From positions 32,001 to 96,000 of the IMG/VR virus record IMGVR_UViG_3300011242_000002: a stretch of DNA of 64,000 nt. One strand, written 5' to 3'. Shown here piece after piece: positions 3,086-53,494 of the stretch (its first letter is position 1; each line of letters starts with the position of its first letter). The notes beneath the pieces were generated by a model. It had not been told where the DNA came from, ran no database searches, and saw only the letters and a list, made by a program, of their open reading frames with translations. The DNA comes from a virus (Duplodnaviria > Caudoviricetes). The position numbers and the translations under genes were made by a program.

Positions 3086-5575
3086 ATGCGAATCAAGTAC
3101 CTTGAGCTATACCATTACCAGCGCCTGAAGAATAAAGGCATCAACCGCATCAAGCTCGACTTCACCGAGGTCATCCAGGTCATCATCGGCGCCAACGGCA
3201 TGGGCAAATCCAGCCTGATGCGGGAGATCTCTCCACTCCCCCCGGACAACGGTGATTACGTCAAGGGTGGCACCAAGCATGTGATCATTGAGCACAAGGG
3301 GGCCTTTTATGAACTGATGTCGATTTGTGGCACCCCGTCCCGTCACTCCTTTAAGTGTAACGACGTAGAGCTCAACGAATCCAAGAACCTCAGCGCCCAG
3401 AAGGAACTGGTCGAGGTCCATTTTGGCTATACCGGGGAAATCCACGAGCTGCTGCTCGGCTTGGTGAACGGCGTATCCTTTACCACCATGTCACCGGCCA
3501 AGCGCAAAGAGTGGCTGATGGCGCTCTACCCCAACGACCTGACCTACATCACCGATCTGCATGACAAGTTTAAGACCATGCTGCGCGATGCCAAGGGCGG
3601 AATCCGCACCAGCTCCACGCACCTGTCCGGCTTATACGACCAGCGCGGCAACGGGACCAATCTGGAGGAGATGCAGCAGCGTATCGATCACCTTCAGCAG
3701 CGGCGTGACAAGATTGCCCGTTTGGTTTCCGAACAGCTGACCAGTGAGAACCACCAGGGAAACATTGATCGTACCTACGTGGACCTGCAGCGTCTGGTGA
3801 ATAATCACCGTAACCCGATTGCGCTACAGGGTAGCTACCGGGACCGTGAACATATCGTTGAGCTGATTAACGAAACCAACGGTAACCTGCAACAGCTGGA
3901 GTACGCCTACCAGACCCACAGCAAGGAGCTGACGGAGCTTGCGAATAACGAAGTGTTCAAGCAGGCGGCCACCGCCGAGGACAAGGAACGCCTGGAAGCC
4001 CAGCAGCGTCAGCTGAGTGAACAGCTCGAGCGTGACAAGACCGACTGGGCGATTGCGGTGTCCAACTATAGCGACTTTGCCTTATGGCCGATCATCACCG
4101 GACTCAACGAGTTTGACCAGCGTAACCTGATAAGCGTGGCGCCTGGGTTGTTAGAACTGCTGGTTGCCCTGCATCCCATGGACGATGAAGAGGTTACCCT
4201 GCGTCGCTATGATGCCGTGGTCAAGCTGAAGTACGAGCTCGGTCCCGAGCTGGAAAAGCAAACTGACATTGTTAACCGCATCAGCCACAAGCTGAACCAC
4301 CTGGAGTCGGCCGATCGCACCGAGTGTCCGAACTGCAGTCACCGTTGGTTACCCGGTGTGTCAACCCAGCAGCTGGAAGAGTTCCGCCAGCGTAAGGCTG
4401 TGGAGCAGCAGAAGCTCGATGACCTGACTGCCCGGATGGCCAAGTGTGATCACTACATTAATACCTACGCCATCTGGTATGCTGCCGCCAGTCAGTTTAC
4501 CCGCTACATGGTCGGCCACCCTAACCTGGAAGGATTACACCAGTGGTTGACCGAGCAACGCGTGCTGTACGTTGGGGGTACCAGTTTTGCCCGTGAGTTG
4601 ATGGCGATCATCAATGCTCTGCCTACCGAACACAGTATCCGCAATGTTACGGCAGAGCTGGAACAGCTGGCCAACCGGCTGAAGATGTTTGACTCCGATG
4701 CCATTGAATGGCACAAGCGTCGCTACCAGGAACACGAAGACGCGCTTAACCGGGTGATTGAACAGCGGCGTGCCGCAAATCAGGACCTGCAGCGATTGAA
4801 CCGAGACCTGCAAACTGCCGACGATGCTCAGCGCATGGTCAACGAACTGCAGCGCCAGAAAGGGTACATCGTCAGCCAGGTTGGTCAGTTCGCCCACCAA
4901 ACCTTAACCAGCATTGCCAACAACGAGCATCGCCAGCTTGGGGATGAACAGCGGGCCTTAACCACCCAGCTGTTTAACAGCCGTTCACTGGAAGGCTCCA
5001 TCACCAGTACCGAGCAGCACATCGAACTGATGCGCCAGCAGGAAGAGGTGTTGAAGCTGTTGGTGAAGGCCACCTCCCCTACCGAAGGGCTGATTGCTGA
5101 GCAGCTGTCCGAATTCATTGAATGCTTTATGGGGAACATGAATGCAGAGATTGACGAAATATGGGATGACGTGCTCCAGATTAAGCCCTGCAATTTGGAA
5201 AATGGTTCGTTGTCATACAAGTTCCCGCTGTTATCCGGTGAATACGACTGCGAAACCGCCGACATCTCCGAATCCTCCACCGGCGAATCTCAGCTGATTA
5301 ACTGGGTGTTTCGTTTAGTGGTGATGGAGTATCTGGGCTTCAACGAATATCCGCTGTACGGCGATGAGATTGGTGCCAACTTCGATGAGAAGCACCGTCC
5401 ACGGCTGATGGAGTTCTTGAAGAAGTGTGCATCATCCGGCAAGTACAGCCAGATCTTTCTTATTTCGCACTACATCGCTCAGCACGGGGTGCTAACCCAC
5501 GCCGAGGTCTGTGCCCTGTCCACGGACGGTGTGGCCCTCCCAGAGCGTTACAATGAGCATGTGGTGATGTCTTAA
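3086..5575 (+). CDS. sbcC: SbcC/Rad50-like SMC ATPase
   Basis: Walker A GANGMGKSS, long coiled coils with central CPNC zinc hook, SSTGE signature, Walker B LYGDE, H-loop LISH. Confidence 0.9.
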   Translation: MRIKYLELYHYQRLKNKGINRIKLDFTEVIQVIIGANGMGKSSLMREISPLPPDNGDYVKGGTKHVIIEHKGAFYELMSICGTPSRHSFKCNDVELNESKNLSAQKELVEVHFGYTGEIHELLLGLVNGVSFTTMSPAKRKEWLMALYPNDLTYITDLHDKFKTMLRDAKGGIRTSSTHLSGLYDQRGNGTNLEEMQQRIDHLQQRRDKIARLVSEQLTSENHQGNIDRTYVDLQRLVNNHRNPIALQGSYRDREHIVELINETNGNLQQLEYAYQTHSKELTELANNEVFKQAATAEDKERLEAQQRQLSEQLERDKTDWAIAVSNYSDFALWPIITGLNEFDQRNLISVAPGLLELLVALHPMDDEEVTLRRYDAVVKLKYELGPELEKQTDIVNRISHKLNHLESADRTECPNCSHRWLPGVSTQQLEEFRQRKAVEQQKLDDLTARMAKCDHYINTYAIWYAAASQFTRYMVGHPNLEGLHQWLTEQRVLYVGGTSFARELMAIINALPTEHSIRNVTAELEQLANRLKMFDSDAIEWHKRRYQEHEDALNRVIEQRRAANQDLQRLNRDLQTADDAQRMVNELQRQKGYIVSQVGQFAHQTLTSIANNEHRQLGDEQRALTTQLFNSRSLEGSITSTEQHIELMRQQEEVLKLLVKATSPTEGLIAEQLSEFIECFMGNMNAEIDEIWDDVLQIKPCNLENGSLSYKFPLLSGEYDCETADISESSTGESQLINWVFRLVVMEYLGFNEYPLYGDEIGANFDEKHRPRLMEFLKKCASSGKYSQIFLISHYIAQHGVLTHAEVCALSTDGVALPERYNEHVVMS

Positions 5576-45456: not shown

Positions 45457-45486
45457 CTATATTACCTGAGTGTAATCCCGAACATA
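45457..45486 (+). promoter_or_regulatory. putative early promoter CTATATTAC-N5-TG with CCCGAACATA leader
   Basis: Motif copy; downstream sequence shared with the 51445 copy. Confidence 0.7.
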
Positions 45487-46585: not shown

Positions 46586-46597
46586 GTAACACCGCAC

Positions 46598-46634
46598 CGG
46601 CATAACGGCCAGGGGGCCTCCCCCTGGCTCTTTA
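46598..46634. terminator. hairpin with CGGCATAA flank
   Basis: gccaggggg-cct-ccccctggc. Confidence 0.7.
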
Positions 46635-48446: not shown

Positions 48447-48476
48447 AGAGGGGTTTCGGTCCCTCTTTTTTTTTTT
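48447..48476 (+). terminator. intrinsic terminator
   Basis: agaggg...ccctct followed by a long T run. Confidence 0.8.
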
Positions 48477-48523
48477 GTTACCACGATCAATTCTATACAC
48501 TTCTTTCTGGCTAAGGATACTTC

Positions 48524-49018
48524 ATGTCTGAACAAAACGTTACACAAGAACTGCTGTCGACCTACGTCGTCATTGATAACCAAGCGCACTACCCGATCGC
48601 GGTAGAATTAAAAGCTGGCGGTGACATTGCAGAGGCATTAGAGCTGTTACGTGAAGGCTATCTGGTAAAGCACAAAGATAACGTCCAGCATAAGCTTATC
48701 ATTGCGGGGATGTTTGATGCGCTGCTTGCTGAGGCACCGCACCTGAACCTCAACTATGACCGCTCGATCAAGCTCGGTACCGTCACCCTGTACTATGGGA
48801 AAACCAGCCGTTTGGCGCCGGTGACCACCAAAGATCTGTCAAAGTACTTTGAAGAACCGGTCAAAACTGACACGGTGGTGAGCGATGAGCTGGACCTCAG
48901 TGGGTTAGCTGACATTGACTTTGATGCGGTCAACCAGCGCGTTGAGCAAATGCAGGCTGGCGGCGGTGAAGTGGTCGCTGAGAGCAACGAGTGCGAAGGC
49001 GGCGGTTGCAAGATTTAA
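48524..49018 (+). CDS. hypothetical protein with NrdA-like C-terminal redox tail (ECEGGGCKI)
   Basis: TAAGGA SD; acidic linker followed by terminal CxxxxC-KI. Confidence 0.8.
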   Translation: MSEQNVTQELLSTYVVIDNQAHYPIAVELKAGGDIAEALELLREGYLVKHKDNVQHKLIIAGMFDALLAEAPHLNLNYDRSIKLGTVTLYYGKTSRLAPVTTKDLSKYFEEPVKTDTVVSDELDLSGLADIDFDAVNQRVEQMQAGGGEVVAESNECEGGGCKI

Positions 49019-49022
49019 CCTG

Positions 49023-49059
49023 AGGGTCGGGTCGCTTCGGCGGTCCGACCCTTATGCCG
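49023..49059 (+). terminator. UUCG hairpin + TTATGCCG
   Basis: agggtcgggtcgc-ttcg-gcggtccgaccct. Confidence 0.75.
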
Positions 49060-49158
49060 ATTGATGATATGTAAAACTGCACATATGTGACCTGTATATA
49101 TAACCACACATTTATTGGCTAGGGTCCGTCCCTGGCCTTTATTGCACTAGGGGGTAGT

Positions 49159-50118
49159 ATGCTAGAGCTGTTGTATGGGACCGACGCCACGAACGACGCG
49201 GATAATAAAAGTGACCTGTCAGGTTATACCAACGGACAACAGGCTAACTCAATGCAGACCCATGCATTTTTAAACAACATCTTTGCTAACGGCGGGGTGC
49301 TGGCGATCTACAATAACCGGGTATTGTATCTGAAAGGCTCGACCATGGCGCGCTACCGGTTCGCTACCCCGCCGGTGTATGAGGACACGATTGATCTGAC
49401 CGCACCCATCGCCTACGACCTTAATGGTAGTGTGTTCCAATACGGCAAGTACGTGTACTTTGGCCAGTCGCGTGGTGATCAACAGCTTATCACTCGCGTT
49501 AACCTGACCAATGGTGCAGTGGTGGTCTATCCGGTGACTCCGGTCACCAAAGGCATGTTTTGCTATTACGAAGGCTACCTGTATATCACCGGTGGGTTTA
49601 TCGGCACCGCGTTGAACGACACCAAGCTGTGGCGCTTGGACGTGAGTAACCCGAGTGCCGGGTGGGTGCAGGTGGCAACCTTTGCGACCAAGCTCCCTAC
49701 CGTCATCATTGGCAGTCAGGCGTATCTTTATAATGGACGGATGCTGTTCTGCGGAGGCGGTAAGGTGGTAGCGGGTGATGTGAACAACAACGACGGCAAC
49801 ACCTACACCGTAATCCCACAGATTGATCTTGGCAACTACTCGGTGAGTTCCATCACCTCGACCATTGCCTTGCGTAATGACTACCATAACGCCACCTTTA
49901 TTAACGGCACGTATCTATCACAATACGTTTATAACCTGAGCGGGGGCAATACCAGTTACATTGGTGTGAACCTGCTGACCGGACAGGCCCGTACGTCAAA
50001 CCTGGGCAATCAGCTACCGTCGTATCACAGCCTGTTCTTCCAACAAGGGGAACTCGGGATCATCAGCGGTGGTTATGGCGGTAAAACACTCCACACGGTA
50101 CGACTCCCTAAATCATAA
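49159..50118 (+). CDS. Kelch-like beta-propeller, probable virion protein
   Basis: YLYITGG...LWRLD...W and MLFCGGG Kelch-type blades; MLELL N-terminus. Confidence 0.65.
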   Translation: MLELLYGTDATNDADNKSDLSGYTNGQQANSMQTHAFLNNIFANGGVLAIYNNRVLYLKGSTMARYRFATPPVYEDTIDLTAPIAYDLNGSVFQYGKYVYFGQSRGDQQLITRVNLTNGAVVVYPVTPVTKGMFCYYEGYLYITGGFIGTALNDTKLWRLDVSNPSAGWVQVATFATKLPTVIIGSQAYLYNGRMLFCGGGKVVAGDVNNNDGNTYTVIPQIDLGNYSVSSITSTIALRNDYHNATFINGTYLSQYVYNLSGGNTSYIGVNLLTGQARTSNLGNQLPSYHSLFFQQGELGIISGGYGGKTLHTVRLPKS

Positions 50119-50136: not shown

Positions 50137-50724
50137 ATGGCAAAACTTTTCTGGCGCTATGCTACCATGAACGCAGGGAAATCAGCTGAGCTGATGATTG
50201 CGGCGTATAACTACGAAGAACGCGGCATGCAGCGCATCATTATAAAACCGGCAATTGACACCCGCGATGAGCACGGGAAGGTCTGTAGCCGTATTGGCCT
50301 GACAACCGATGCAATTTTGTTCCAGCCCGAAGAAGACCTGTTTGAAGTCATCTGCGTGGCGCTGCGGGACCAGCCCAAGGCCATGTGCGTCTTTGTTGAT
50401 GAAGCACAGTTCTTGACGCCTAAGCAGGTCAGGGAATTGGCGAAGGTGGTGGACGTCATTAAGCTGCCGGTGATTGCCTACGGCCTGCGCTCTGACTTTC
50501 AGGGTAATCTGTTCCCCGGCTCTGCAGCGCTGTTTGCCACAGCTAACGAACTGACAGAGGTTCGAACCATCTGCCATTGTTCGCGTCGTGCCACCCACGT
50601 CTTGCGCTACGGTGCAGACGGGAACGTGGTGAAAGAAGGGCCACAGGTCGAGGTGGGCGGTAATGACATGTACGTGGCGGTGTGTCGTAAGCATCACGCC
50701 GAAGCCATGGGGTATTACGATTAA
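50137..50724 (+). CDS. tdk: thymidine kinase
   Basis: MNAGKS, SRIG, VFVDEAQFL, YGLRSDF, C-x-C and VCRKH motifs. Confidence 0.95.
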   Translation: MAKLFWRYATMNAGKSAELMIAAYNYEERGMQRIIIKPAIDTRDEHGKVCSRIGLTTDAILFQPEEDLFEVICVALRDQPKAMCVFVDEAQFLTPKQVRELAKVVDVIKLPVIAYGLRSDFQGNLFPGSAALFATANELTEVRTICHCSRRATHVLRYGADGNVVKEGPQVEVGGNDMYVAVCRKHHAEAMGYYD

Positions 50725-50726
50725 GT

Positions 50727-50764
50727 CGGCATAAGAGCCAGGGGTGACCCTGGCCTTTATGCTG
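50727..50764. terminator. bidirectional hairpin flanked by CGGCATAA...TTATGCTG
   Basis: gccaggg...ccctggc between convergent genes. Confidence 0.8.
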
Positions 50765-51509: not shown

Positions 51510-51863
51510 ATGAACCAGTCTGTCTATGACGTCACCGAAGCCATTGGAATAGCAATAAGCCCCATTCGCAGCCTGTTAACCGATGAAGCCACCGCGAACT
51601 ACTTGCGCAATCTGACGCGAGTGGTGCTAAACCACATCAGTAACCCGCAGCTGAACGTGGCAGAAGCACTGGCCAACGTTATTGAGATGCAGGGATTACC
51701 CGTGTATGACCCCATCATCTCACGGGCAACCGCGGACACGTTCGCCCGCCTGCACCGTTTCTTAAGCCCGCTTACCTTTGAACAAGGCAGCCGCCTGTTG
51801 ACCATTATAAGTGTGAACGTCACACCCGTAAGCTATCACCTGACACTAGGGTCCGTTACATGA
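51510..51863 (+). CDS. hypothetical protein
   Basis: GGAGG SD; overlaps the hslU start. Confidence 0.75.
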   Translation: MNQSVYDVTEAIGIAISPIRSLLTDEATANYLRNLTRVVLNHISNPQLNVAEALANVIEMQGLPVYDPIISRATADTFARLHRFLSPLTFEQGSRLLTIISVNVTPVSYHLTLGSVT

Positions 51864-53494
51864 AAACAACTGCTGACATCACCAAATACCTGGACCAGTT
51901 TGTAATTGGTCAAATGGCAGCCAAATGCGCCATTGCCGTGGCCTACCGCGAACGCGCCCTGAAGATCGCCAATAGCGGCGATGAATGGAAATACGTGGTA
52001 CCCAATAACATCCTGATGATTGGCGCTTCAGGCACGGGGAAAACCGAGCTCGCCCGACAGCTGGCCGAGTTAACCGATGCACCATTCGTGAAGGTGGAAA
52101 TTACCGAATTCACCCAGGTCGGGTATTTTGGTCGCGATGTGAAAACTATTCTTACCGATCTGGTAAAAGAAGCGGTGCGCATTGCGCCGGGGCTGTGGCG
52201 TCAGGAAAACAACGGCGGTGGTGATGAACTGCTGAAATTTCTGCAAAAGGTTTTTCTTGACTACAAGCCCGTGCTGGCAGAGCACTTAAAGCACGACCCG
52301 AACACGTTAACCTTTGCTGAGGTTAAAGCGGCTGTGGCGTCGGGTAAGTTTAAGAAGCTCGAACTGCCGGCCATGTTGTACCTGGACATGCTGATGGAGG
52401 ACGAGGAAGCAAACTCTCAACACAAGAGTGCCATTGATAAGGTGTTAGAAGAGTTCGGCCTAGGTGGTACGACCGCCAGCCGTAACATCAACATCTATTT
52501 GACCTTCATTACAATGTGTATCGATAACAACACGTTTAGCAGTGAGAAGCACGGGGATTACATTCAGACCGTCATTCCGGCTGAAGCCTACAAGAAGCTG
52601 CTGCAACGGGCCAAGACCAAGCTTACCCCCACCAAGGTGCGCGGGGTCTTTATGAATTACAAGGAAAACACGCTGAAGGACATTGCTGAAAAACTTAGTT
52701 TCATGGTCAAAATGCGTTTCGTGGATTTACTCAGGAATGTGAAACAGAAAGCCCCGGCCTCAAATGAGGTACCCGACTCTTTTATCATCAAGCTGGTCGA
52801 AGAGCGCGGGATCGTGTTCATTGATGAAATTGACAAGATCTTCGTCGACACCAGCGGGGGTAACGTGGGGAACATCGGGGTGGTGCGTGACCTGATGCCG
52901 TATCTGGATGGGGTAACGCTGGACGTGCCGATTGTCGGCGAGCGTGATGCCTACTACACTCGCAACCGTTCCGACAAGACCTATCGCATTAATACGGCTA
53001 ACATTCTCTGGATAGCTTCCGGGGCCTTTAACATCGCGAAGGTCTCTGACGTACCGGCAGAAATCCTGGGGCGCTTACCGGTGCACGTGAAGCTGCAGTC
53101 ACTCGATGCTGATGCCTTGTACGGTATTCTCAACAAGCCTCACGGCTCGATCATCAGTCGCTTGAAGATGATCATGGAGGCGGAAGGCATTGAGTTTGTC
53201 ATCACTGACAAAGCGGTGCGTGCCATGGCTAAGCTGGCGTTTGACTGTAACACCCGCGGTGAGGACCTGGGGGCACGTCGTCTGATTAGCATCAGCAGCC
53301 AACTCTTTGACCAGCTGCGCTATGATGCGTCCAACATGGACGAAGGGGCAGTGGTGAAGATCGACGACAAGTACATCAACGAGCGCTACCAGCAGATTTA
53401 TGAGTTGGTGCCAGAGCGGGTTGAGCGTTTCAAACCGGCGAATACCGAGCAGGTGGCCTTGGCGACCCTGGCCAGCTTGTTAAAGAACTACTAA
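51860..53494 (+). CDS. hslU: HslU-like AAA+ unfoldase
   Basis: LDQFVIGQ, PNNILMIGASGTGKTELAR, VGYFGRDV, GIVFIDEIDKI, GRLP, LGARRL. Confidence 0.9.
   Translation: MKTTADITKYLDQFVIGQMAAKCAIAVAYRERALKIANSGDEWKYVVPNNILMIGASGTGKTELARQLAELTDAPFVKVEITEFTQVGYFGRDVKTILTDLVKEAVRIAPGLWRQENNGGGDELLKFLQKVFLDYKPVLAEHLKHDPNTLTFAEVKAAVASGKFKKLELPAMLYLDMLMEDEEANSQHKSAIDKVLEEFGLGGTTASRNINIYLTFITMCIDNNTFSSEKHGDYIQTVIPAEAYKKLLQRAKTKLTPTKVRGVFMNYKENTLKDIAEKLSFMVKMRFVDLLRNVKQKAPASNEVPDSFIIKLVEERGIVFIDEIDKIFVDTSGGNVGNIGVVRDLMPYLDGVTLDVPIVGERDAYYTRNRSDKTYRINTANILWIASGAFNIAKVSDVPAEILGRLPVHVKLQSLDADALYGILNKPHGSIISRLKMIMEAEGIEFVITDKAVRAMAKLAFDCNTRGEDLGARRLISISSQLFDQLRYDASNMDEGAVVKIDDKYINERYQQIYELVPERVERFKPANTEQVALATLASLLKNY

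What the first reader, a model, noticed from the sequence alone, without database searches (positions are those of the whole stretch)
48524..49018. Stand-alone protein ending in a ribonucleotide-reductase-like redox tail (ECEGGGCKI)
Seen: a 164-aa gene between two terminators whose only two cysteines lie in the terminal ...ESNECEGGGCKI, after an acidic, flexible-looking linker. Established: class Ia RNR alpha (E. coli NrdA) ends ...DDGCESGACKI, and that CxxxxC pair shuttles electrons from thioredoxin/glutaredoxin to the active site. The rest of this protein shows no RNR motifs. Inference: it is a detached redox swinging arm that re-reduces a phage or host NrdA in trans, or a decoy/adaptor that recruits host Trx/Grx. 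Either would fit the dTTP-synthesis genes nearby (tdk is two genes downstream).
Basis: partly seen in the sequence, partly recalled or inferred. Interest (0 to 1): 0.8.

Follow-up and report, generated by a model that had tools for sequence, protein, structure and literature searches.

The report
Phage copy of host RNR redox tail
A giant phage that has no ribonucleotide reductase of its own encodes a small protein ending in a near copy of the flexible cysteine tail of its host's reductase; the same tail module is kept in many related giant phages, so it probably acts on the host's DNA-precursor supply, though its function is untested.

Summary
ORF 48524-49018 (+) encodes 164 aa whose only two cysteines lie in the terminal ECEGGGCKI. 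It has a good RBS and a hairpin terminator on each side.

The last ~45-50 aa form a conserved module: an acidic amphipathic helix, an invariant GGGEV, an acidic linker, then C-x(3-4)-C-x-I at the C-terminus. An exhaustive profile search found 30 cluster representatives, with the module always at the very end and the Cys pair always kept. It occurs alone (44-94 aa) or fused to at least three unrelated N-domains.

Some phage copies end DGCESGACKI, identical to the last 10 residues of E. coli NrdA. The variation among phage tails falls largely inside that of gammaproteobacterial NrdA tails. pN/pS is 0-0.2 for all but one nearly identical pair.

All 15 carrier genomes tested lack NrdA, thioredoxin and glutaredoxin, so the target must be host proteins. 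One carrier, PCH45, has no alpha subunit but encodes an intact host-type NrdB.

Best reading (0.42): a trans-acting spare reducing arm, recharged by host Trx/Grx, that speeds re-reduction of host NrdA. The broader claim of a host-NrdA-tail mimic working in the RNR thiol relay gets about 0.65. A decoy/inhibitor and an adaptor remain open. No paper found describes it (PHROG 10239, unknown function). An earlier first-reader note in this scan covers the same stretch.

The parts
48447..48478 (+). Upstream intrinsic-terminator-like hairpin plus T run. It is conserved immediately upstream of the orthologues in SA002 and pEa_SNUABM_37, where it leaves no room for a separate promoter.
48512..48517 (+). 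Ribosome-binding site TAAGGA, 6 nt before the ATG
   Evidence: the words GTAAGGA and TAAGGAT are 8-11x enriched in upstream regions of this genome
48524..49018 (+). CDS, 164 aa (P0001), stop codon included
   Evidence: full-length homologues P0002, P0003, P0008, P0009, P0020
48545..48811 (+). N-terminal domain (aa ~8-96), beta-beta-alpha-alpha-beta-beta. It has no Pfam family and no convincing PDB fold match. It occurs only in the window-phage / SA002 / pEa_SNUABM_37 lineage.
48812..48904 (+). Acidic, low-confidence linker (aa 97-127). Its length varies among homologues.
48905..48958 (+). Start of the conserved module: an acidic amphipathic helix (aa 128-145, LADIDFDAVNQRVEQMQA) with hydrophobic positions spaced i, i+3, i+7, i+10
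48959..48973 (+). GGGEV (aa 146-150), unchanged in every phage copy aligned and nearly so across the 30 representatives. It sits where NrdA tails have RDGA.D.
48974..49015 (+). NrdA-tail look-alike (aa 151-164, VAESNECEGGGCKI) with C157 and C162. Exactly CEGGGCKI also ends a bacterial NrdA (L126).
49024..49059 (+). Downstream terminator: GC hairpin followed by TTATGCCG, the phage's recurrent terminator signature
49064..49071 (+). ATGATATG, conserved just after the terminator in three phages. It is a candidate late-type promoter for the downstream Kelch-like gene, which would put the module gene in a different transcription unit (inference).
45457..45465 (+). CTATATTAC, a member of the phage's early-type promoter family (AT-rich stretch + CCTA[CT]ATTAC + GTG). 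It is the nearest recognisable promoter upstream on the same strand, so the module gene may be reached by read-through (inference).
50137..50724 (+). Thymidine kinase, two genes downstream (context only)

Best explanation
The gene encodes a small phage protein made of a lineage-specific N-domain and a portable C-terminal module. The module's last ~22 residues imitate the disordered C-terminal redox tail of the host's class Ia ribonucleotide reductase alpha subunit (NrdA C754/C759).

Proposed mechanism:
1. The phage has no RNR, thioredoxin or glutaredoxin, so it depends on host NrdAB for de novo dNDPs.
2. The phage tail is kept as a dithiol by host Trx1/TrxB or Grx1/GSH, which recognise it as they recognise the NrdA tail.
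3. Acting in trans, it enters the host NrdA active site and reduces the C225-C462 disulfide left after each turnover. It is thus a spare swinging arm.
4. The conserved amphipathic helix and GGGEV would dock or position it.
5. The net effect is faster recycling of host RNR while a 273-kb genome is replicated.

Shown: steps 1 and 2 only in part, namely the sequence mimicry, its conservation, the purifying selection, and the absence of phage RNR, Trx and Grx. Inferred: recharging by host reductants, steps 3-5, and the direction of the effect.
For: Mimicry:
- Stand-alone copies in Erwinia-type jumbo phages end DGCESGACKI, equal to the last 10 aa of E. coli NrdA. BLASTP of such a copy against NrdA hits only residues 737-761, E=6e-6. 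hhalign of the family against the NrdA C-terminus aligns only the tail.
- Eighty Enterobacteriaceae/Pantoea species all have ...SIQDDGCESGACKI.
- Thirty-nine NrdAs from the wider order show C[AED][GSD]G[AG]CK[IL], including CEGGGCKI and CEGGACKI, the commonest phage forms. They start the tail with RDGA.D, where the module has (R/Q)(D/A)GGGEV.
- No phage tail uses the 'CA' form that makes up half of the wider NrdA sample. All known hosts belong to the 'CE' group.
- The Ser of CESGAC is AGC in one phage lineage and TCA in PCH45 and fHe-Yen9-02, which points to convergence on the host residue.

Real gene under selection:
- There are 30 representatives at 50% identity. The module is always C-terminal and the Cys pair is always kept.
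- pN/pS is 0-0.2 in 20 of 21 pairs.

Target must be host:
- NrdA is absent from all 15 carrier genomes, by HMM and by protein query.
- Trx and Grx are absent from all 15, although an RNR beta gene cluster is conserved in over half of jumbo phage genomes (PMC13282480).

Direction of effect:
- PCH45, a carrier with no alpha subunit, encodes an NrdB 80% identical to E. coli NrdB. Its metal ligands, Y122, W48, Y356 and the alpha-binding tail are intact. That phage therefore invests in the activity of host alpha.
- trxB knock-down makes Serratia resistant to PCH45 (PMC11797060).

Precedent:
- The tail-to-active-site relay is established (PMC11903788).
- A 25-mer NrdA tail peptide alone is a Grx1 substrate (PDB 1QFN chain B found; my recollection of Berardi and Bushweller 1999).
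- In yeast the Rnr1 tail works in trans across the dimer (Zhang et al. 2007, from memory; its reference is listed in PMC6382339).

Context:
- tdk lies two genes downstream here, and a dCMP deaminase lies about 1 kb downstream in Dickeya phage JA13.
Against: - There is no biochemical, structural or expression evidence of any kind.
- NrdA's own tethered tail has a very high local concentration, so a free arm may add little unless it docks. No docking site is known.
- The invariant GGGEV and the helix have no counterpart in NrdA, and this model does not specifically explain them.
- Several phage tails depart from the host's exact sequence: CxxxC spacing in pEa_SNUABM_37, P0023, P0028, P0031 and P0034, and last-but-one residues K/E/S/M/I/A/T.
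- Only one of 15 carriers has the orphan NrdB.
- The trxB dependence of PCH45 has many other possible causes.
- Fusion to at least three unrelated N-domains fits a tag or adaptor role at least as well.
- Expression timing is unresolved. No promoter is recognisable between the upstream terminator and the start codon.
Confidence: 0.42

Rival explanations
1. Decoy or inhibitor. The free tail competes with NrdA's own tail for Trx1/Grx1 or for the active-site channel, or it blocks entry of the beta tail. Host RNR is throttled in the way Sml1 does in yeast, for example to stop host replication or starve competing phages.
For: The sequence mimicry is the same as for the main model. It is a small, acidic, largely disordered protein, like the Sml1/Spd1 class of RNR inhibitors (PMC6382339). 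The phage carries salvage enzymes (tdk).
Against: The carriers have no RNR of their own, so inhibition would cut their only de novo dNTP source. PCH45 adds a functional-looking NrdB that can only work with host alpha, which makes no sense alongside an alpha inhibitor. A reduced dithiol tail is not a sink for Trx/Grx.
Confidence: 0.18
2. Adaptor or tag. The module is a portable handle that captures host NrdA, or Trx/Grx, through the tail and/or the helix. The variable N-domains, or the helix alone, place the captured enzyme, for example next to the phage nucleus or other nucleotide-metabolism enzymes.
For: The module is always at the extreme C-terminus and is fused to at least three unrelated N-domains or none. 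The conserved amphipathic helix and GGGEV are not explained by tail mimicry. This genome encodes chimallin, and PCH45 is a nucleus-forming phage (PMC11797060).
Against: Most copies have no N-domain at all. No partner gene is conserved next to it across lineages. Thiol-disulfide contacts are transient and make poor tethers. With one query, chimallin was found in only 1 of 5 other carriers, which is inconclusive.
Confidence: 0.14
3. The cysteine pair has another job and the likeness to NrdA is convergent. One option is a helix-mediated dimer whose four cysteines bind Zn or an Fe-S cluster. Another is a general Trx-coupled thiol buffer or peroxide scavenger for the infected cell.
For: The amphipathic helix could dimerise. 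CxxxC variants exist. One relative, P0021, has a Cys-rich N-terminus.
Against: Convergence would have to reproduce 8-10 consecutive NrdA residues, the terminal K-I carboxylate, the acidic run before the first Cys and an RDG-like start. It would also have to reach the Ser codon twice. The motif is close to unique to NrdA in host genomes.
Confidence: 0.1
4. A decaying remnant of a lost phage or captured host nrdA gene, with no present function.
For: In one lineage the last 33 nt differ from Pantoea nrdA by a single base. The N-domain has a faint local likeness to NrdA's NTNYDPS...KTLYY region, seen by eye.
Against: Purifying selection is strong (pN/pS 0-0.2 in 20 of 21 pairs). Intact ORFs with RBS occur in about eight phage lineages and 30 sequence clusters. 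No statistically supported similarity to NrdA exists beyond the tail. No RNR fold appears in structure searches.
Confidence: 0.03

Closest known systems
C-terminal redox tail of class Ia RNR alpha (E. coli NrdA residues ~735-761, C754/C759)
   Same: Both are a disordered acidic segment ending C-E-(S/G)-G-(A/G)-C-K-I at the free C-terminus. Up to 10 of 10 terminal residues are identical. The overall length (~22 aa from an RDG-like start) and the range of variation are also shared.
   Different: It is not attached to an RNR catalytic barrel. It is encoded by phages that have no RNR. It is preceded by an amphipathic helix and an invariant GGGEV that NrdA lacks. Some copies have CxxxC spacing.
Sml1 / Spd1 / Dif1 / Hug1, small disordered regulators of eukaryotic RNR large subunit
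   Same: These are small, largely disordered proteins that act on the large subunit's regeneration step. Sml1 interferes with the function of the C-terminal CX2C tail (PMC6382339 citing Zhang et al. 2007).
   Different: There is no sequence relationship. Sml1 is not a copy of the tail and has no redox cysteine pair. It is an inhibitor encoded by the cell itself, whereas here the direction of effect is unknown and the evidence leans towards activation.
Phage-encoded RNR reductants (T4 NrdC thioredoxin, NrdH-like glutaredoxins) and the Grx domain fused to NrdB in Facklamia ignava (PMC6187632)
   Same: These also rewire electron supply to RNR by adding a dedicated redox component. They are a viral or modular solution to the same re-reduction bottleneck.
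   Different: Those are thioredoxin-fold proteins that reduce the tail. This one has no Trx fold and copies the tail itself, the next link in the relay.
Competitor peptides derived from the RNR small-subunit C-terminus (E. coli NrdB tail; herpesvirus R2 YAGAVVNDL), from my own knowledge
   Same: A short free copy of a subunit's flexible tail acts in trans on the large subunit.
   Different: Those are laboratory peptides copying the beta tail, and they inhibit by blocking subunit association. This is a natural gene copying the alpha tail.
PHROG 10239 (47-position profile, unknown function)
   Same: The module matches this profile: E=0.012 for P0001 and 6.6e-9 for P0020.
   Different: The PHROG has no annotation. 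Neither the link to NrdA nor the fused forms are recorded.
Orphan host-type NrdB of Serratia phage PCH45 (QFP93096.1)
   Same: It is a second exchangeable part that services host NrdA, carried by a phage with no alpha subunit and with the tail module.
   Different: It is a full, conventional enzyme subunit acquired from a host. It is present in only one of the 15 carriers examined.

Membership tests
Class I/II ribonucleotide reductase large subunit (NrdA, Pfam PF02867) | Ten-stranded alpha/beta barrel catalytic domain with the C225/C439/C462 active site | tested here: not met
   No Pfam hit at E<=1. BLASTP and hhalign against NrdA align only the last 8-10 residues. No RNR appears among the structure-search hits for the N-domain.
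Class I/II ribonucleotide reductase large subunit (NrdA, Pfam PF02867) | C-terminal flexible tail with a redox Cys pair (CxxxxC-K-I in gammaproteobacteria) | tested here: met
   The window protein ends ECEGGGCKI. Exactly this ending occurs in a bacterial NrdA (L126), and relatives end DGCESGACKI like E. coli NrdA.
Jumbo-phage NrdA-tail module family (PHROG 10239) | C-terminal ~45 aa: acidic helix, GGGE(V/I), acidic linker, C-x(3-4)-C-x-(I/L) at the end | tested here: met
   A profile built from 9 members scores P0001 at E=5.5e-21 over residues 114-164. PHROG 10239 gives E=0.012. See alignments A1, A2 and A4.
Thioredoxin / glutaredoxin superfamily | Thioredoxin fold with a CxxC active site at the N-terminus of a helix | tested here: not met
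   No PF00085 or PF00462 match in the protein or the genome. The Cys pair lies in a low-confidence, non-helical tail with CxxxxC spacing.
Sml1-type RNR inhibitors | Binding to the RNR large subunit that blocks regeneration by the C-terminal tail | not testable with these tools
It needs binding and activity assays.
RiPP precursor peptide (leader plus Cys-containing core) | A conserved neighbouring maturase or modification enzyme | tested here: not met
   Gene neighbourhoods differ between lineages. They contain no recognisable maturase conserved with the module.

The most novel reading that the evidence does not exclude
Jumbo phages that have given up their own RNR service the host enzyme with detachable spare parts. 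One is a free copy of the alpha subunit's reducing arm, joined in PCH45 by a host-type beta subunit. In the most novel reading the module is also a portable handle: through it, different N-domains capture host NrdA or its reductants and place dNTP synthesis where the phage needs it, for example at the phage nucleus. That would be the first viral protein that works by impersonating one mobile segment of a host enzyme's internal electron relay.
Probability: 0.3. Interest if true: 0.9.

Novelty: new variant of a known kind. Interest (0 to 1): 0.78.

Why it matters
RNR is the bottleneck for DNA precursors. How large phages without RNR obtain enough dNTPs is poorly understood. This applies especially to nucleus-forming phages, which separate replication from metabolism.

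A natural, free-standing copy of the NrdA tail would be a new way for a virus to tune a host enzyme, by supplying or counterfeiting one moving part of its thiol relay. It would also be a ready-made probe for the least-resolved step of class Ia RNR catalysis: how the tail reaches the active site and how Trx/Grx recognise it. That step has been proposed as an antibiotic target (PMC11903788).

The hypothesis can be tested directly with existing E. coli RNR assays and Cys-to-Ser trapping. It also gives a function to test for an unannotated family (PHROG 10239) found in many Erwinia, Klebsiella, Serratia, Yersinia, Salmonella and Dickeya jumbo phages.

Tried and rejected
Binding to NrdA, Trx or Grx could therefore not be modelled.
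- The word-indexed homology search with the 52-aa tail found nothing. The exhaustive profile search was needed.
- PDB sequence searches with the protein and with a stand-alone tail gave nothing meaningful.
- Fold searches of the N-domain (best Z 6.4, an archaeal ribosomal protein; Foldseek E>=0.07) and of the second type of N-domain (best Z 5.5) gave no convincing match. The ESM Atlas feature search gave no usable hit. Pfam and PHROGs found no informative family for any fused N-domain: one sub-threshold DUF3987 match in Pfam, and in PHROGs only the module's own PHROG 10239 and a weak phrog_11267.
- I suspected that the N-domain is a shrunken NrdA C-terminal subdomain, because of local look-alikes GM..(11)..NxNYDxS and G.VTLYY against NrdA GIM..NTNYDPS and GVKTLYY. 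BLASTP, Pfam, hhalign and the fold searches do not support this. I rejected it as unsupported.
- A prohead-protease cleavage-site reading of GGGE|V was dropped, because most family members are stand-alone 45-aa proteins.
- I looked for a promoter directly upstream of the gene. The early-type motif family (CCTA[CT]ATTAC) is not present there, and in SA002 and pEa_SNUABM_37 the terminator abuts the RBS. Timing stays unresolved.
- I tested whether the module is restricted to chimallin-encoding phages. With this phage's chimallin as a single query, only 1 of 5 other carriers matched. The result is inconclusive because chimallins are divergent.
- Literature searches for an RNR-tail mimic, for phage RNR inhibitors and for the motif CESGACKI found no description.

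Full report
**1. Observation**

The window is bases 32001-96000 of a complete 273,301-bp phage genome with terminal repeats. The genome encodes a chimallin homologue, so it is a phiKZ-like, nucleus-forming type of jumbo phage.

ORF 48524-49018 (+) gives 164 aa ending AESNECEGGGCKI, with no other cysteine. It has a TAAGGA RBS of the type enriched in this genome. It lies between a hairpin plus T-run (48447-48478) and a hairpin followed by TTATGCCG (49024-49059). The latter is a signature that follows about 60 GC-rich hairpins across the genome.

An AF2 model shows a compact N-domain (residues ~8-96, pLDDT 80-90). The remainder is low-confidence apart from one helix at 133-145. tdk is the second gene downstream. 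E. coli K-12 NrdA ends ...RDGAEDAQDDLVPSIQDDGCESGACKI.

**2. What the conserved unit is**

tblastn against phage genomes showed full-length relatives only in Salmonella phage SA002 and Erwinia phages pEa_SNUABM_37/48. In the last two the gene is split into a 108-aa and a 61-aa ORF.

The last ~35-50 residues alone match small ORFs in about 30 further jumbo phages of Erwinia, Klebsiella, Raoultella, Serratia, Yersinia and, by a second query, Dickeya. In those phages the module is a separate 45-61-aa gene. Examples are PCH45 (MTQPKDDFDIDALANVDFDAVDKRVEEMQAGGGEVLEPSNKCESGACEI) and Miami (...GGGEVVEASDECEGGACKI).

A profile of nine members was searched against 1.84 billion representative proteins. 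It found 30 proteins (E down to 3e-24), and in every one the match runs to the last residue. All 30 keep two cysteines, mostly as C-x4-C and four times as C-x3-C, followed by one residue and then Ile (Leu once).
- Twenty-one are 44-94 aa.
- The others are fused to the window-type N-domain (P0001, P0008, P0009, P0020, plus P0002 and P0003), to a second unrelated domain of ~180-240 aa (P0010, P0012, P0014, P0028), or to a third (P0033).
- None of these N-domains has an informative Pfam or PHROG family or a convincing fold match.

The family corresponds to PHROG 10239, of unknown function. Stand-alone genes in seven related phages show pN/pS of 0-0.2 in 20 of 21 pairs. The exception is one nearly identical pair with only three differences. 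Synonymous changes occur inside the tail itself. This is therefore a real gene family under purifying selection. The unit under selection is the C-terminal module: acidic amphipathic helix, GGGE(V/I), acidic linker, Cys pair.

**3. How good the NrdA likeness is**

Several Erwinia-type phages (L012-L018) end ...MRDGGGEVVDDKDADGCESGACKI. The last ten residues are identical to E. coli NrdA. BLASTP of such a copy against the 761-aa NrdA hits only residues 737-761 (E=6e-6 for the pair). Profile-profile comparison of the fused family with NrdA C-termini aligns only the last ten residues.

On the host side:
- Eighty Enterobacteriaceae/Pantoea species have an invariant ...SIQDDGCESGACKI.
- Thirty-nine NrdAs from the wider GTDB order read C[AED][GSD]G[AG]CK[IL] after an acidic run. 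They include CEGGACKI (9) and CEGGGCKI (1), the commonest phage endings.
- These NrdA tails begin RDGA.D just after the TLYY strand, and some are only 22 residues long (for example RDGADDEKVIEDDGCAGGACKI). This closely parallels the phage RDGGGEVVDEKDADGCESGACKI. The module thus imitates the whole tail, not only its tip.
- Half of the wider NrdA sample has Ala after the first Cys. No phage copy does. All isolates with known hosts infect genera of the 'CE' type.

Two DNA-level details are worth noting. In one lineage the last 33 nt differ by a single base from Pantoea nrdA. In PCH45 and fHe-Yen9-02 the Ser of CESGAC is TCA rather than AGC, so Ser was probably reached twice.

In four host-type genomes the relaxed DNA pattern for C-x-x-G-x-C-x-I-stop occurs 1-4 times in any frame, and the nrdA end is one of them each time. 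Chance resemblance can be dismissed.

**4. What the phages lack and have**

This genome has no NrdA/NrdJ (PF02867), NrdB, NrdD, thioredoxin or glutaredoxin. Fourteen other complete carrier genomes have no NrdA by HMM or by protein query, and no Trx or Grx. A recent review reports an RNR beta gene cluster conserved in over half of jumbo phage genomes (PMC13282480). The 0 of 15 is therefore notable, although the carriers form only about eight lineages and are not independent.

The option of re-reducing a phage NrdA is excluded. Whatever the tail touches is a host protein.

One carrier, PCH45, encodes a class Ia beta subunit but no alpha. It is 80% identical to E. coli NrdB. It keeps the iron ligands, Y122, W48 and Y356, and its alpha-binding C-terminus reads ...SSYLVGQIDADVNTEDFGDFQL. 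Such a protein can only work with host NrdA. At least this carrier is therefore selected to raise, not lower, the activity of host alpha.

A Tn-seq/CRISPRi study found that trxB knock-down makes Serratia resistant to PCH45 (PMC11797060). This is compatible with a Trx-dependent phage function but is not specific to one.

**5. Context and timing**

The order [~270-300-aa protein]-[module]-[Kelch-like beta-propeller protein] is shared between the window lineage and PCH45-like contigs. In Miami-, Alexandravirus- and JA13-like phages the neighbours differ. No partner gene travels with the module.

Nucleotide-metabolism genes are nearby in two lineages: tdk here, and dCMP deaminase in JA13.

In the window, SA002 and pEa_SNUABM_37 the upstream hairpin/T-run abuts the RBS. 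A conserved ATGATATG follows the downstream terminator. The nearest recognisable promoter on this strand is an early-type CTATATTAC at 45457-45465, one of about 20 related sites in the genome. Early expression by read-through is plausible but not shown.

**6. Mechanism**

Established: after each turnover the NrdA active-site disulfide is reduced by the C-terminal Cys pair, which is then reduced by Trx or Grx (PMC11903788). A 25-residue NrdA tail peptide on its own forms the expected mixed disulfide with Grx1. In yeast the tail acts in trans across the dimer, and Sml1 blocks this step (Zhang et al. 2007, as cited in PMC6382339).

Inference: a free tail copy should be recognised by host Trx/Grx and could reach the NrdA active site.

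I favour a spare reducing arm that accelerates re-reduction (0.42). The reasons are that the carriers depend wholly on host RNR and that PCH45 adds a beta subunit for host alpha. The broader statement, that this is a host-NrdA-tail mimic acting somewhere in the Trx/Grx-NrdA thiol relay, I put at about 0.65.

Rivals:
- Competitive decoy or inhibitor: 0.18.
- Portable adaptor that captures NrdA or its reductants: 0.14.
- Unrelated thiol or metal function with convergent sequence: 0.10.
- Functionless relic: 0.03.

The invariant GGGEV and the helix are unexplained by simple mimicry. They are the main open point.

**7. Comparison and novelty**

It is not an RNR, because the barrel is absent, and it is not a Trx-fold protein. 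It works like, or against, the NrdA tail. The nearest functional analogues are Sml1-type regulators, phage-encoded RNR reductants, Grx-NrdB fusions, and synthetic subunit-tail peptides. None of these is a natural free copy of the alpha tail. Full-text searches found no description.

I class it as a new variant of a known kind: the RNR redox tail, now detached, modular and virus-encoded. Interest is high because the prediction is sharp and can be tested with standard assays. An earlier first-reader note of this scan (e1-5511264) flagged the same stretch.

Noticed in passing
Genome-wide; in the window e.g. 49024-49059, 43196 region, 46590-46630, 50737-50760: About 60 GC-rich hairpins are followed by the fixed word (T)TTATGCCG rather than a plain T run. 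This looks like a phage-specific terminator or RNA-end signature. Many are bidirectional.
   Followed up: partly
window 45457-45465, 30409, 55768, 19437, 14095, 6690 and others: A promoter-like family: an AT-rich stretch, then CCTA[CT]ATTAC(C/T), then GTG 3-4 nt later. There are about 20 copies in intergenic regions. It resembles the TATATTAC early promoters of phiKZ.
   Followed up: partly
window 49064-49071; L002 ~4520; L001 ~4585: ATGATATG is conserved just downstream of the module gene's terminator in three phages. It is a candidate late-type promoter for the Kelch-like / virion-structural genes.
   Followed up: no
window 49060-49137: A ~60-nt stretch (with TGTATATATAACCACAC) sits between two terminator-like hairpins. 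It is either a short independent transcript or a double terminator.
   Followed up: no
L146:5784-6887 (Serratia phage PCH45, MN334766.1 124783-125889): An orphan class Ia RNR beta subunit, 80% identical to E. coli NrdB and with an intact alpha-binding tail, in a phage with no alpha subunit. It implies a hybrid enzyme of phage beta and host alpha.
   Followed up: partly
window 48740-48805 (aa 62-94 of P0001): Local look-alikes of NrdA's last structured segments (GM..NLNYDRS against GIM..NTNYDPS; GTVTLYYGKT against GVKTLYYQNT, the Y730/Y731 strand). BLASTP, hhalign and fold search do not support them.
   Followed up: yes
L001:3995-4321 and 4358-4540 (Erwinia phage pEa_SNUABM_37): The orthologue is split into an N-domain ORF (108 aa) and a module ORF (61 aa). 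The tail is shortened to CVDGCKI (CxxxC). This is a natural fission form of the window gene.
   Followed up: partly
L140:2112-3389, L142:1469-2764: An AcrVA2-like protein (PF26125) lies three genes upstream of the module gene in PCH45-like metagenomic contigs.
   Followed up: no
window 51860-53494: A 544-aa AAA+ protein with HslU/ClpX-like N-terminal matches (phrog_4339; ATP-dependent protease PHROGs), three genes after tdk.
   Followed up: no
window 49159-50118: A Kelch-like beta-propeller protein (phrog_9022). It is homologous to the gene that follows the module in PCH45-like phages. Paralogues in SA002 are annotated as virion structural proteins.
   Followed up: partly
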